DNA from: Dendrobates tinctorius
Lineage: Eukaryota
Direction of reading: 5' to 3'
Assembly (NCBI RefSeq): GCF_039654945.1
Contig: NW_027361960.1
Span: forward strand, 17,484,001-17,548,000
Length of the DNA stretch: 64,000 nucleotides
A program made the translations under genes and the position numbers. Each line of letters starts with the position of its first letter. Position 1 is the first letter of the stretch. Shown one piece after another: positions 24,703 through 64,000 of this stretch. The notes under the pieces were generated by a model. The model was not told the DNA's origin and did not search any database. It saw only the letters and a list, made by a program, of their open reading frames with translations.

Positions 24703-25243
24703 AAGGGAATCTGTCACCTTTTCTTTTGCGTTCTGTAATGCTGTAGATAAGCCCCCGATGTAACCTGAAAGATAAGAAAAACACGTTAGATTATACTCAC
24801 CGGAGGGGGCGGTCTGGTCAGATAGGTGTCGCGGTCCAGGCCGGCGCCTCCCATCTTCACAAGATGCCATCCTCTTCTTCCTTTCCTGTAGTGGCTCCGG
24901 CGCACTGCTCTGCCCTGTTGAGGGCAGAGCAGAGTCCTGCAGTGTGCAGGCATCGGGAGAGGTCAGAGGTCTGGGGCCTGTGCACTGCAGTATTCTGCTC
25001 TGCCCTCAACAGGGCCGAGCAGTGCGCCTGCGCTGGAGCCACTACAGGAAGGGAAGAAGAGGACATCATCGTATGAAGATGGGAGGCCTCGGACCGGACC
25101 GCCCCCTCCGGTGAGTATAATCTAAACGTGTCTTTCTTATCGTTCAGGTTACATCCGGGGCTTATCTAGAGGATTACAGAATGCTGTAGATAAGCCCCTG
25201 ACGTCAATGCCGGCAGCTGCAAAAAAAGGGTGACAGATTCCCT
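24703..25243. mobile_element. Complete T2/Kolobok-type MITE
   Basis: ttaa-agggaatctgtcacc ... ggtgacagattccct-ttaa. Perfect 15-bp TIR with TTAA TSD. Confidence 0.9.
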
Positions 25244-25341
25244 TTAAAGCTGCAATGCTCCTCTGGGAAATATGCAAATTGTCTCTTCAGAGAGGAAGAC
25301 GACTAGAACTCTAGTGCCACCTATTGGAAGTAGCAATCCTA

Positions 25342-25374
25342 CTGACGAGGGGCAGTACCCCGAAACACCGGTTT
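25342..25374 (+). ncRNA. Hammerhead ribozyme core (duplicate copy)
   Basis: CUGACGA-GGGG CAGUA CCCC-GAAAC ACCG GUU. Confidence 0.65.
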
Positions 25375-25457
25375 GTTATCCGAAGTTTCCGGTGTAATGT
25401 GCAGGGCTTCAGTAAGATTTCCGGTGTCCAGGAACAGACAGCTTGCCTTGGAAACAG

Positions 25458-25497
<40 letters not shown>

Positions 25498-28131
25498 CAG
25501 CGCCTCACACAGTGGTGAAAAAAAAAGCCTTACATTTTATTCTGCCTCCTGTGGCAATGTTTCGGTCCGAAGACCTTTTTCAAGCATGGACCGAAACGTT
25601 GCCACAGGAGGCAGAACAAAATGTAAGGCTTTATTTTTCACCACAGTCTGAGGCGCTGTCTTTTTTATCTATTTCCAAGGATGGACTCCCTGGTTTTGAC
25701 ATGGGCCTTTACAAATCTGTCTTAAAGACTTTAACTCTTATAGGGTGCGGTTTAACTTTGTTTTTTGGTATCAGCTTGCCTTGGAAGACTTCCGGGGCAT
25801 AGAAAGTGATGCAAAATACCAGCGTATGCGCAATACTAATTTTATGCTTTGCCCACAGTTGGGCAAAGCATACTGCGCACGTGCGAGGGCCCTTCTCAAT
25901 GCGCACGCGCGGAAACCCTATGTGAACGCAGTAATAAGAACAAATGCATAGGGCAAGACAGGAAGTGGGGTGGGGGAGAATAAGCCCCGCCAGTCCGACC
26001 GGACCACGGGATTTGCATACATCACAAAGGTGAGGGGTCAGGGGCTATGAAAGATACTACTAGAATACTTATGGGATGCACAACTGGGTGATATCTTTAC
26101 CTGATATCACAAAAAATGGGTGACAGATTCTCTTTAAAGGGTCGACATTGACTTTTAGGATTGCTACTTCCAATAGGTAGCACTAGAGTTCTAGTCCTCT
26201 TCTTTGAAGAGAAAACTTGCATGGATAGATTATGTAACTCATTATAGTGTATGGAACAATTCACACATTTGTGGATTTTTATTGAGAACCTTGTGTCCCC
26301 TAAACAGAAATTGGTTGTATCAGCTTACAATTACTCCAAAAAATGAAACCAAAAGAAGAAAACTCCCATCTCTCTAATTATCATGAGCAGTGCACACAAA
26401 CATATTTGGTAGGGCACAGTTCCCAGCCTACACATGTGCACATAATACCAATACAAAGCACTAAACTTCGCTTCTGGATTGGATTTTTGAAGATAAACCA
26501 GAGCAGTAAGTGGGAGCCCACTATAATTTCTATAACACTGGCAGAAAACTGTGAATTGTACAAAATAACAATCTCTGTCGTAGCAGCAAATTATATAGTG
26601 AGAGCAGTCAGCCATTAAGACCTTCAACACTGGCATTTCACAATCTGCCAACAATCAGGGCTGGCAAGGCAGTTTCTTCAAATTGTATATATAAAGGTGG
26701 GTGGATGTGCTCCTATCAGCGGCATCGGCTACTGTATCGGAAATTTGCTCGGTGTTGATTTATTATGCCAGTGTTGTTCCACTTAATTAAAATGATGTCA
26801 CACAAAATGCTCTGGCAAAATAATTTCAAAGTGCATTAGCTACAGGACACTGGAAAGGCCAAGAGGAAGAGGGGAAAATACATTCATTAACCCTGCTGCT
26901 CAAATGCCGCCCTTCACTACCCTGGCACAATTATAAATCTGTCAAGTCGCACTTGTTTATGGGAATTAACTTTAGGGTTCGTATGCTTTAGGATATGAAG
27001 TGCAATGTAAAAAATGTCATAGGACTCTGCAGCCATAACACACAATTACTTCGGCTAGCTAACAGCACGGTTACAATATTGCACATTGTGCGCTCGTCAT
27101 TCATTGACTCATTTTCTAGGAGAATCTGCTTATTAAAAATAGTTGTGACAGCATGAGGAGCCACTCCTGCCAGTGCATCTGCTGACAGCACTTCACATTT
27201 CTACAGAGACCGCGGCTGCCTGTTCCTAGAACTGGCCCGAGTACAGGAGGCCATACATGTTAGATTAGCTGACGGCAACACCCCGATGGACAGGCACGTG
27301 GCCAAGTATGCTGAATCAGGGCGAGCGGGGATGCAACGTATAATGCTCCCAGCTGATATTGGGAGGCAGAAGAACCATGTATGACAATATCTGCATTCTA
27401 CTAGTTTAGTTTGTGGGGATAAAGGGGGAAAAACAGCAAGTCTACCATTTTGTGTCCTAATAAAGGACTAGAATCGGAAATTATTTGATCACTTTTGTAA
27501 CACTCTACATAACATTTTTCCAGCCAGTGTAAGACCTTCACTTTATTAGGTACCCAGCAGCAATGATGCCACATTCAAATGCCAGACTCATATTGCAAGA
27601 TGTCATGGGCTAAAATGGGCTAATAACCCCCTCCTACTGTCAAACATCTTAAAATGCCATCTCCACCATCGACTATGGCATCTAAGAAGTTAAACAGTGG
27701 GGATCAAAGTTGGCTTCAGACCAGGCAGTTGTGGCACCTTCAGCTGTTCCTGTACAGTGGCCATATTTATTCAGCCGAGGTCATAAACGCACTCACCTGT
27801 TAGTCACTGTTCACATGCCAACATGACAATTTGTAACAGATTTGGTAATAAAAAAAAAAAATCAAACTTCACCCATTACAACTGGAGCAAAAAACGCTGA
27901 AAATGGAAACCAGCCGTCATGAACTTTTGTAATAGGTTTCAAATTAACCAGGTGATATCTTTTTATGATGGCTGAACAAAAAAAGTTGCACAACCTACAT
28001 TTTTTTTTACCAGGTTTTCATAATGTCAAAACACATTTAAAAGTGACAAACAGTGAACATAGCCTTACAGATATAGATTTCATATGGTATTAGGGTCTAA
28101 AGTGTCCCAAACTACTGCTCCCACCTTCACG

Positions 28132-54343: not shown

Positions 54344-54817
54344 AGGCTATGATCACACGTTGCATTTTTTAAAATGCATTTTTAATTCAAATCTTCAAAC
54401 GCGTTTTACAGTGACGGCAAAGTCTGAGATTTTAGAAATCTCATGCACACAGCTTATTTTTTTTGTCCCCAGTATTTTGTGCAATACCTTGGTTTTTGCC
54501 AAATGCAGCATGTCACTTTCAGCATTCTTCCCCCATTCAAAGCACTGGGTGGTGCAAAAAACACTGGGGAAAAAAAAACACCCGTATCCATTTTTGAGTT
54601 TGAGGTTTTTGTGCCAAATCCTGATGAAGTAGAATCAGATTTTTTTATGCACTAAACTTTATCACTATGCACAAGAGACAAAATGTACCCTAACAAAAAC
54701 GTAACAAAATACAACAAAACCTGCTTTTTGGAGGCAGGTTTATTACTGCCAAGAGCAGGTTTTAGCTTAAGAAATAAACGCAACGCTGGCGCAGACTCAG
54801 TCACTGAGTGCTCTGTC

Positions 54818-55552
54818 GTGCACCATTTTTGGTCGTATATGCCATCTGGAAGCGGTCTACTACGTCTGGGTGTCCACCTCCAGTAGGCGCGCACACACAA
54901 AAAAAGATGCACAACAGTAGACAGTGACACAGTCTGCACCTTTAGGCTAAGTGCACACGTAGCAGTGCACCATTTTTGGTCGTATATGCCATCTGGAAGC
55001 GGTCTACTACGTCTGGGTGTCCACCTCCAGTAGGCGCGCACACACAAAAAAAGATGCACAACAGTAGACAGTGACACAGTCTGCACCTTTAGGCTAAGTG
55101 CACACGTAGCAGTGCACCATTTTTGGTCGTATATGCCATCTGGAAGCGGTCTACTACGTCTGGGTGTCCACCTCCAGTAGGCGCACACACACAAAAAAAG
55201 ATGCACAACAGTAGACAGTGACACAGTCTGCACCTTTAGGCTAAGTGCACACGTAGCAGTGCACCATTTTTGGTCGTATATGCCATCTGGAAGCGGTCTA
55301 CTACGTCTGGGTGTCCACCTCCAGTAGGCGCACACACACAAAAAAAGATGCACAACAGTAGACAGTGACACAGTCTGCACCTTTAGGCTAAGTGCACACG
55401 TAGCAGTGCACCATTTTTGGTCGTATATGCCATCTGGAAGCGGTCTACTACGTCTGGGTGTCCACCTCCAGTAGGCGCGCACACACAAAAAAAGATGCAC
55501 AACAGTAGACAGTGACACAGTCTGCACCTTTAGGCTAAGTGCACACGTAGCA
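54818..55552. repeat. 147-bp tandem repeat, exactly 5 copies
   Basis: Unit starts at 54818, 54965, 55112, 55259, 55406. Copies are identical except for one G/A site. Confidence 0.97.
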
Positions 55553-55858
55553 GAAAATTTCTGCGGGAAAACCTGACTCCCTTCCCAGAAACCGTGCGTT
55601 TTTTTCTGCGCAAAAAATGTGCGGTTTATGCGTTTTTTTCCGAGCGTTTTCAAGACGCATAGAAATAGCCAGAAACGCGGAAAAATCCACGAAATTAATG
55701 AGCATGCTGCGTTTACCGCGAAGCATTTTTTTTTCGCGGTAAAAAACGCATCAATATGCATAAAAAGTGCAAAATGCATAGAAATGAATGGGAAGCTTAT
55801 TTTTAGCGGTTTTATTGGGAAAACCGCTAAAAAAACGCTGTGTGTGAACACAGCCTTA
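55531..55858. mobile_element. Harbinger-type MITE, inverted relative to 54001-54343
   Basis: ggctaagtgcacacgtagcag ... tgtgtgaacacagcc-tta. Confidence 0.85.
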
Positions 55859-62000: not shown

Positions 62001-62278
62001 CAATGAATGACGGAGAACATGATTACCACTTACGAGGAGGCCTCATACACCGTGCCATGTTCTACTCAGCGCTGTAGTGGGATTTTACTGTAAACCACTG
62101 TACAACCTCCAATATCACACACAGATCTGTCAGACTATCGCTTCTAGGGGAAAACGACCCTTACAGCATGGCACCACACACCAGCCCGTGCAGGGCAATG
62201 TGTCCTGGCATGTCTCAGATACATCAGTATGTTATCCAGAAAAGAAACGTACCGTAACAGGGTCCATTCACATCAAGG

Positions 62279-63180
62279 CTAATACAGCACAGTACAAAAA
62301 GAGGACTTGAAAATCCTCCAATAATGGAAAACAGCAAGAGAACAACAAAGTTTACCCATACAGGCCTCCAAACAAATGCACTATCAGGATGCAGTGGACC
62401 CATATAATAAAGATAGCAACACAGGTGCAAAAATACCAATCAAGCAACTGCTCCAGCCTACCAATACATGGAGGGGGCGATTGCCTGGTATGTTGATGCA
62501 CAAAACAACTTGTATGCGGCGCTGTTCACACTAAGGCCATGCACAGCATCCAGGCCAGCCTAGTACCAACACCCTTCTATTAGCTCAGGCGGGCTGGCCC
62601 AGCACTAACAAAATGCATGCTGTGTGAACAGACACCGCAGTTTACAAGACCAAATGGGCCCAGCTGCACCCCGAATAAAAAGTGCAAAAAACACATTTAA
62701 AAAAATGTGGAGTATTAGCTGATATTTTGGCCAAAATACGTGAGCCCGTAACCTACGTCAAAGATCTCCATGTTTACGGGTACCTAACACTAAATACTAA
62801 TACAGCACCGTATGTGTTTTTTGCACTTTTTATTCAGGGTGCAGCTGGGCCCATTTGGTCTTGTAAGCTGCGGTGTCTGTTCACATGACATGCATTTTGA
62901 TAGTGCTGGGCCAGCCCGCCTGAGCTAATAGAAGGGTGTTGGTACTCGGCTGGCCTGGATGCTGTGCATGGCCTTAGTGTGAACAGCGCCGCATACAAGT
63001 TGTTTTGTGCATCAACATACCAGGCAATCGCCCCCTCCATGTATTGGTAGGCTGCGAGCAGTTGCTTGATTGGTATTTTTGCACCTGTGTTGCCATCTTT
63101 ATTATATGGGTCCACTGAATCCTGATAGTGCATTTGTTTGGAGGCCTGTACAGGTAAACCTTGTTGTTCGCTTGCTGTTT
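62279..63180. mobile_element. ~900-bp fold-back insertion flanked by a 16-bp direct repeat
   Basis: TCCATTCACATCAAGG at 62263-62278 and 63181-63196. Arms ~62325-62697 and ~62812-63184 are high-identity reverse complements. Confidence 0.85.
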
Positions 63181-64000
63181 TCCATTCACATCAAGGAAAA
63201 GGCGTGGAGGAGTCACTACGCTCGTAAAGTATAGAAGCCCCCACACACACCAAAGTAATGGACAATATTAACCAAAACAATCATTTTTTGGGTACAAAAG
63301 TAAACATCTTTCTTTTTCAGCCAAAAGAACTTTTGTTCAAACAAAAATGGTTGGTCCATGAATAAGCTTTCATTGAAAGGCTATGCCAAGAAGGTCCTTT
63401 TGTTGCCCGAAGACACCGACCATGTATGGCCAAACTGAAGGATTATACACAGGTAAAATGGTTGCGTTGGCCCCACAATTGTTCATCCAGTATAGCGGCA
63501 CATAAGCCAAGAAATGGTGCAATCCTTATTTAGACCGGTGGCAATTACAATAAGCAGAAGAGTTTGCCGGCGCTCACGGGTAATGGGTGTCTTGCCTGTT
63601 CTTGTACTTCTACTTGCCGGAGAATAAGGCCTAGAAGCATGGGAACACGCAGAGGAACCACTGTCAGTGCATCGTGCCAGATGGTGCCATCATTTCTTGG
63701 CTTCCATGTAGATATTTTTACTCCTGAGGATTGTTCTCCAATATTTTTGTCATCACCCCATGGGATATACTGTTATACGTTCCCGCTGCTTCTACCAGTG
63801 CTGGTTTTGCTGCGTATTTGGTGGCTGAACACTTGCATGTGTATGGGCCCTTTGGAAAGGTGGGTTTTCATGAAGTTGGGTACCCCAAAGGGCCGGATAA
63901 CAGGACACCATTTCGCCATGTGCTACCCATTTCACCAATGTTATTGACTAGACCAGTTTGCACATCTCTGGCTCTGTGTGTCTGCTCCATGACCGCTGTA

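What the first reader, a model, noticed from the sequence alone, without database searches (positions are those of the whole stretch)
62263..63196. Palindromic insertion with 16-bp TSD, terminal redundancy and an unexplained structured spacer
Seen: a 16-bp direct repeat flanks the insertion. CTAATACAGCAC occurs at 62279 and again at ~62797, giving a ~518-nt terminally redundant unit, followed by an inverted ~370-bp copy. The spacer has nested stems (CCCGTAA/TTACGGG; AGTATTAG/CTAATAC). A long TSD is unlike the 2-8 bp TSDs of the DNA transposons here. Inference: a retroposed non-coding RNA (Penelope/retrozyme-like). The spacer sits where the other fold-backs carry a hammerhead but has no hammerhead core, so it could be a different processing structure or ribozyme.
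Basis: partly seen in the sequence, partly recalled or inferred. Interest (0 to 1): 0.7.

Follow-up and report, generated by a model that had tools for sequence, protein, structure and literature searches.

The report
Ribozyme-free folded Penelope-type parasite element
This 0.9-kb palindrome is one copy of an abundant, protein-less 518-base repeat whose insertions have the same layout as the genome's Penelope-like jumping genes; it has no hammerhead ribozyme, but its RNA is predicted to keep one fold across distant subfamilies, likely the signal that lets it borrow those elements' copying enzyme.

Summary
The anatomy is real: 16-bp TSD, 518-nt unit, 12 nt of a second unit, 375-nt inverted arm. 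It is one of about 1,300 candidate copies, with older subfamilies down to 65-70% identity. Insertions show 12-16-nt TSDs, tandem units, variable inversion points and two preferred outer ends about 45-55 nt apart, one at each side: the layout of Neptune-type Penelope-like elements (PLEs) in this genome (7 of 7 examined). The 'spacer' and 'terminal redundancy' are by-products of where two cDNAs met; both vary between copies. Yet the spacer holds two covarying hairpins, and the rest of the unit forms a larger covarying domain. G-U versus A-C counts (74:22 and 106:11) put the fold on the window's minus strand, the inferred template. No hammerhead core or Rfam ribozyme was found, and insertion ends do not sit at a fixed distance from the spacer fold. 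Best reading: a ribozyme-free non-autonomous PLE whose folded RNA likely recruits Neptune RT. No autonomous partner, empty site or expression was shown. The scan noted ribozyme-free PLE parasites before, in this genome and another. New variant of a known kind.

The parts
62263..62278 (+). left target-site duplication, 16 nt
   Evidence: flank is single-copy in G000, so no empty site to compare
62279..62796 (-). full 518-nt monomer; inferred template RNA is the minus strand; left end is the 'tail-containing' preferred end
   Evidence: 518-nt tandem period in L008, L012; ends
62279..62322 (-). optional 'tail' between the two preferred ends (unit 1 to about 45-55)
   Evidence: present at one end only in 10 of 14 inverted family-A insertions
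62301..62318 (-). 5-bp tail hairpin, present in subfamilies A-D, no two-sided change
62350..62355 (-). weak 5' splice-donor-like site (stronger in subfamily C; not picked up in D)
   Evidence: inference from sequence only
62387..62402 (-). motif resembling the 3' module of several Neptune families in this genome; forms the 3' strand of the body's closing helix
   Evidence: resemblance noticed post hoc
62383..62678 (-). large covarying body domain: closing helix of about 23 bp plus two long arms
62671..62672 (-). position of a 3' splice-acceptor-like AG after a pyrimidine run; reads GG here and in most family-A copies, AG in B and D
62712..62790 (-). spacer module: weakly supported closing helix (62784-62790 with 62712-62718) around two hairpins
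   Evidence: 0 of 7 pairs with two-sided change; 3 of 7 broken in D
62723..62738 (-). 16-nt palindromic hairpin with a self-complementary GGCC loop
   Evidence: 2 of 7 pairs with two-sided change
62745..62780 (-). main spacer hairpin: 7-bp stem, inner helix, G-U-rich apical stem
   Evidence: four consecutive pairs with two-sided change
62797..62808 (-). first 12 nt of a second tandem unit (the 'terminal redundancy'); length varies between copies
62812..63186 (+). inverted partial copy, unit 418 to about 45-51, tail-less preferred end; 13 differences in 362 nt from the forward copy
63181..63196 (+). right target-site duplication

Best explanation
The insertion is one copy of an abundant, protein-less 518-nt repeat that has no hammerhead core and is likely copied into new sites by the reverse transcriptase and endonuclease of Neptune-type Penelope-like elements. 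Shown: tandem units, long TSDs, two preferred outer ends, variable inner junctions, a covarying fold. Inferred steps: (1) a tandem array is transcribed on the window's minus strand and stays unspliced; (2) a Neptune protein binds the folded RNA; (3) both target strands are nicked about 14-16 nt apart; (4) each nick primes a cDNA at an internal start, one including the tail and one not; (5) the two cDNAs run for variable lengths and are joined head to head, giving the palindrome. The 'spacer' is the part of the unit that only one cDNA reached. Its two hairpins lie just 3' of the tail start on the template and most likely serve protein loading or start-site setting; the self-complementary loop could pair two units (speculative). 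About 0.85 for PLE-driven non-autonomous element, about 0.5 for the spacer as protein-binding signal.
For: Family A: 1323 and 1308 first-look candidates; natural dimers and trimers. Of 24 distinct loci (30 fetched, 6 dropped as overlapping or duplicate) 15 have a 12-20-nt direct repeat at the ends, 13 of the 14 with an inverted arm; 10 of 14 have one end at unit 513-2 and the other at 41-55, none has both ends of one kind. D (480 nt, 1944 candidates): 14 of 24 with 13-21-nt repeats, 14 of 24 with an end at 10-13. B: 16 of 25 with an end at 16-21, 8 of 25 with 13-16-nt repeats. Neptune insertions here: 7 of 7 have one long and one short end, 12-15-nt repeats at the junction in 6 of 7; RT and GIY-YIG matches. 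Tail = two internal RT starts, and RNA 3' of the start is needed, in Anolis Poseidon (PMC11167929). Covariation: 35 two-sided cells vs 12.1 shuffled in spacer plus tail, 34 vs 13.8 in the body. Strand: G-U:A-C 74:22 and 106:11 on minus, the strand that also carries the splice-like sites.
Against: No autonomous element homologous to the unit was found (only 30 of 5686 GIY-YIG candidates were fetched, 10 stretches extended). The link to Neptune rests on shared layout, a short post hoc motif resemblance and one composite without a TSD. No empty site. Nine of 24 family-A loci lack a 12-nt repeat. The covariation comes from four or five related subfamilies, so independent events are few, and the shuffle control ignores relatedness; the body structure was predicted from the same alignment. 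The helix closing the spacer has no two-sided change. Folding z-scores alone do not pick the strand (L002: plus -4.6, minus -4.2). One locus (L012) carries a change that keeps a pair only on plus. The role of the spacer is untested.
Confidence: 0.72

Rival explanations
1. The spacer is a new self-cleaving ribozyme on the minus strand that replaced the hammerhead and makes the template's 3' end or circular monomers.
For: Covarying hairpins with conserved joining segments next to a preferred insertion end; tandem arrays like retrozymes.
Against: That end is spread over several nucleotides and lies about 14-18 nt (A), 18-23 nt (B) and 12-14 nt (D) from the main hairpin, with no shared sequence at the cut; joining segments differ between A/B and C/D; closing helix unsupported; Neptune shows the same two-end pattern about 130 nt apart; tandem units inside one insertion differ at diagnostic sites (26/335, 34/383), which argues against copying one circle, though recurrent mutation could add to this.
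Confidence: 0.08
2. The spacer is a decayed or variant type I hammerhead on the plus strand, so the family is an ordinary retrozyme that lost or altered its core.
For: Plus strand reads stem, CUGA, hairpin, GAAG (in C and D), stem, UC, stem: hammerhead-like order.
Against: G8/A9 absent in all four subfamilies, 15.1 is G, GAA is lost in A and B; a canonical first box occurs at this place in 1 of 19 pattern hits, a copy cut off by a microsatellite; G-U asymmetry favours the other strand; the would-be cut is 10-20 nt from the insertion ends; Neptune hammerhead cores here are on the sense strand.
Confidence: 0.08
3. The unit is the terminal repeat of an autonomous PLE not yet sampled, and these copies are truncated stubs rather than a self-propagating family.
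For: Solo and inverted terminal repeats are common PLE products (PMC3846280 passages); sampling of autonomous elements was small.
Against: The unit follows itself head to tail in natural arrays of A, B and D; no ORF continues from it except the one composite; several subfamilies kept the whole circular order.
Confidence: 0.1
4. A DNA transposon or MITE fold-back.
For: Long inverted arms; many MITE-like fold-backs in the window.
Against: Arms vary in length and position, TSD is 12-16 nt and unrelated in sequence between sites, tandem units occur.
Confidence: 0.02

Closest known systems
EN+ Penelope-like elements, Neptune and Penelope/Poseidon clades (PMC8557442 passages; PMC3846280 passages; PMC11167929 main text)
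   Same: Partial tandems, adjacent inverted 5'-truncated copy, optional tail at one end, long TSD, intron signals; the Neptune family tested here has the same end pattern and TSD length.
   Different: No ORF, no hammerhead, tail about 45-55 nt, whole unit is a covarying fold; no extended homology to sampled Neptune termini.
Animal non-LTR retrozymes (PMC7229834 part 2 and passages; bioRxiv 10.64898/2026.07.22.740005 parts 1-3)
   Same: Non-coding tandem units of a few hundred nt, highly self-paired, long TSDs, proposed PLE mobilisation.
   Different: The defining type I hammerhead is absent; circular RNA not shown; splice-like sites present.
Non-autonomous Chlamys elements such as MRC1 (PMC8557442 passage)
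   Same: Protein-less PLE parasites with head-to-tail insertions, in a group mostly lacking canonical hammerheads.
   Different: Algal, different PLE clade; generally share 3' sequence with an autonomous family, which is not shown here; no conserved fold mentioned in the passages seen.

Membership tests
Non-autonomous EN+ PLE | partial tandem plus inverted 5'-truncated copy | tested here: met
Non-autonomous EN+ PLE | optional 3' tail from two preferred ends | tested here: met
   10 of 14 inverted A loci have one end of each kind; same in D
Non-autonomous EN+ PLE | TSD like that of autonomous PLEs in the same genome | tested here: met
   12-16 nt vs 12-15 nt in Neptune; no empty site
Non-autonomous EN+ PLE | 3' sequence shared with an autonomous partner | tested here: inconclusive
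   no profile match in sampled loci; short post hoc motif resemblance
Non-autonomous EN+ PLE | mobilised by PLE protein in trans | not testable with these tools
   needs the in vitro assay of PMC11167929
Animal non-LTR retrozyme | type I hammerhead in each unit | tested here: not met
   (positive controls found; the only full-pattern hit is an A-rich loop on the plus strand of family A)
Animal non-LTR retrozyme | non-coding tandem units with long TSD | tested here: met
Animal non-LTR retrozyme | expressed as linear and circular monomers | tested here: inconclusive
   only contigs of runs not on record as RNA were available
Other known self-cleaving ribozymes or ncRNA families in Rfam 15 | covariance-model match | tested here: not met
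   no match over the unit at E<=1 in the window or E<=5 in five loci
MITE / DNA transposon | fixed terminal inverted repeats and short fixed TSD | tested here: not met

The most novel reading that the evidence does not exclude
The two-hairpin module and the large body domain form a new catalytic or telomerase-RNA-like ribonucleoprotein scaffold: the RNA either cuts itself by an undescribed ribozyme fold, or loads and dimerises the telomerase-related PLE reverse transcriptase and assigns a different start site to each target strand, while hiding its own splice acceptor in a helix so that the template stays unspliced.
Probability: 0.2. Interest if true: 0.8.

Novelty: new variant of a known kind. 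Interest (0 to 1): 0.42.

Why it matters
How PLE reverse transcriptase, the sister of telomerase RT, recognises its RNA, and whether the template is the unspliced sense strand or an antisense strand (left open in PMC3846280), is unresolved. A protein-less element is presumably selected only for being copied, so a fold kept on the sense strand across subfamilies 65-70% identical points to the sense RNA as the working molecule and maps candidate cis signals at base-pair level. It also shows that the retrozyme layout can spread to thousands of copies without a hammerhead. Protein-less PLE parasites and the tail mechanism are already described, so the gain is a compact testable substrate, not a new class.

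Tried and rejected
Rfam scans: nothing on the unit. Canonical first hammerhead box after the conserved flank: 19 hits, 18 unrelated, 1 a family copy cut by a microsatellite. Twister, pistol, HDV-like and hatchet layouts were compared by eye from memory and did not fit; only the Rfam scan is a test. My first idea that unit position 1 is a hammerhead cut site was dropped when D and B ends fell elsewhere. Empty site: flank single-copy. Sequencing runs: no RNA holder listed; contigs of five coded runs hold relatives at mostly 80-95% identity but show no splice joint and cannot show strand or expression. Local alignments of the unit to five Neptune termini were near shuffled scores, best 0-2 of 60 shuffles higher, driven by U-rich composition. 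The composite of unit and Neptune 3' part, seen at six places, has flanks from different repeats and no TSD, so co-insertion is not shown. The family-B part used a faulty reference and is discarded; one search replaces it. Degenerate telomere-like repeats on the plus strand were noted and discounted because of end polarity. No earlier scan note matched by sequence.

Full report
Observation. The region reads: TSD (62263-62278), a 518-nt unit (62279-62796), 12 nt of the next unit, an inverted copy of unit 418 to about 45 (62812-63186), TSD (63181-63196). It is the longest inverted repeat of the window. The genome is 6.36 Gb; I infer an amphibian from its size and repeat content, no call names it.

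The family. A search with the spacer gave 1323 candidates, 40 scored, all 97-100% identical; the tail gave 1308. Fetched copies are monomers to trimers with a 518-nt period. A variant seen in outside contigs led to older subfamilies B (524 nt) and C, and a gapped pattern to D (480 nt, about 65-70% identical to A, 1944 candidates). No conserved ORF lies in the unit.

Insertion anatomy. Of 24 distinct A loci (30 fetched, 6 dropped as overlapping or duplicate), 14 have an inverted arm; 13 of these have a 12-16-nt direct repeat at the ends, against 2 of 10 without inversion. Outer ends cluster at unit 513-2 and 41-55; 10 of 14 inverted loci have one of each and none has two of a kind; inner junctions fall anywhere. 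The ten non-inverted loci have their fixed end at 47-56 (six) or near 1 (four). D repeats this with ends at 10-13 (14 of 24) and mostly 50-81, and repeats of 13-21 nt in 14 of 24; B has an end at 16-21 in 16 of 25. Fixed ends facing the target and variable inner ends mean, on the usual target-primed logic, that the template is the window's minus strand. This matches the PLE layout with an optional 30-40-nt tail (PMC8557442 passages), which in Anolis Poseidon is the stretch between two internal RT starts (PMC11167929 main text).

The likely enzyme. The genome holds thousands of GIY-YIG candidates (5686); those inspected have the cysteine linker that I read as Neptune type (clade feature). For one family with RT and GIY-YIG matches all 7 inverted insertions examined have one long and one short end about 130 nt apart, and 6 of 7 a 12-15-nt repeat at the junction by script. 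Several Neptune families share a short 3' module upstream of a splice donor, 8 distinct contexts in 296 kb against 0 in five shuffles; the unit has a similar motif at a similar place, noticed after the fact. No profile match to the unit was found in the sampled PLE loci. A unit fused to a 5'-truncated Neptune copy occurs at six places as one duplicated composite, without TSD; it is suggestive only.

The fold. In 19 sequences from A-D, the spacer's main stem has two-sided changes at four consecutive pairs and the palindromic hairpin at two; overall 35 two-sided cells against 12.1 shuffled, 0 of 500 shuffles as high, but only 7 of 32 pairs (138 of 500 shuffles reach that). The helix that would close a three-way junction has none. 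The body (62383-62678) is predicted to form a closing helix with two arms; 12 of 84 pairs have two-sided changes in 10 sequences, and it folds with z -5.8 on minus and -4.1 on plus. Few independent subfamilies stand behind these counts. Non-Watson-Crick cells are G-U rather than A-C on the minus strand, 74:22 in spacer plus tail and 106:11 in the body, so the minus strand is the one under structural constraint. That strand also has a pyrimidine run with AG (B 20 of 22, D 41 of 41, A only 2 of 33) and a weak donor, which would place tail and spacer in an intron; the acceptor is paired in the body's closing helix. Decay of these sites in young families suggests splicing is dispensable.

Ribozyme question. 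No hammerhead core is on the minus strand in nine arrays or copies; the same pattern finds the cores in the window's other fold-back and in two Neptune termini. The plus strand has a hammerhead-like order of elements but lacks G8/A9, has G at 15.1 and loses GAA in A and B (numbering as in PMC4209133, details from my own knowledge). The near end lies about 12-23 nt from the main hairpin depending on subfamily. Tandem units within one insertion differ at 8-9% of diagnostic-site comparisons, inverted arms at 10-15%, different insertions at 30-37%: both arms tend to come from one source, but not from one identical circle; hypermutable sites may inflate the first figures. An unknown ribozyme is not excluded.

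Comparison and novelty. It works like an animal retrozyme but fails the defining hammerhead test; it meets the layout tests for a non-autonomous EN+ PLE, with the partner unproven. Protein-less PLE parasites are in print for algae (MRC1) and retrozymes are proposed as PLE derivatives. I found no paper describing a hammerhead-free, covarying vertebrate family in searches, seen as listings unless cited above; Repbase, Dfam and supplements were not seen. Earlier scan notes, read after my reading was set, report a 495-nt intron-bearing, hammerhead-free element in this genome and similar two-start insertions elsewhere; these are unchecked and not support. Verdict: real, new variant of a known kind, interest 0.42.

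Noticed in passing
L179:9744-9795 (G000:C39), also L177 (G000:C129): A young Neptune-type family carries, just after its ORF stop, about 50 nt matching the 5' Alu domain of 7SL RNA (Rfam Metazoa_SRP, 25.4 bits, E 7.8e-5, below gathering score). One paper search for this found nothing. Could be a ribosome-binding aid in an autonomous element.
   Followed up: partly
window:23825-24052 and 25239-25466; fragment near 26157-26200: Inverted 228-nt arms each with canonical hammerhead boxes, enclosing other nested repeats.
   Followed up: no
L025/L080:1139-4202 and five further places: 518-nt family copy fused to a 5'-truncated Neptune copy through a 9-nt filler; duplicated as a block.
   Followed up: yes
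L052:1028, L149, L155, L160, L168, L176, L179, L180: Conserved 3' module with palindromic hexamers ahead of a splice donor, 30-45 nt before the element end, in several Neptune families.
   Followed up: partly
L175, L176-L177, L179-L180: Neptune-type elements with a separate upstream ORF of 300-357 aa overlapping the RT ORF in another frame.
   Followed up: no
G000:C39:36.4-40.2 Mb and C345: Dozens of near-identical GIY-YIG matches spaced as in a large segmental array.
   Followed up: no
window:13986-15184 and 54671-55553: Tandem arrays with 81-nt and 147-nt periods.
   Followed up: no
L006 right end: A family-A copy ends in an expanded AAT run that grows out of the unit's own sequence, before a 9-nt repeat.
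   Followed up: no
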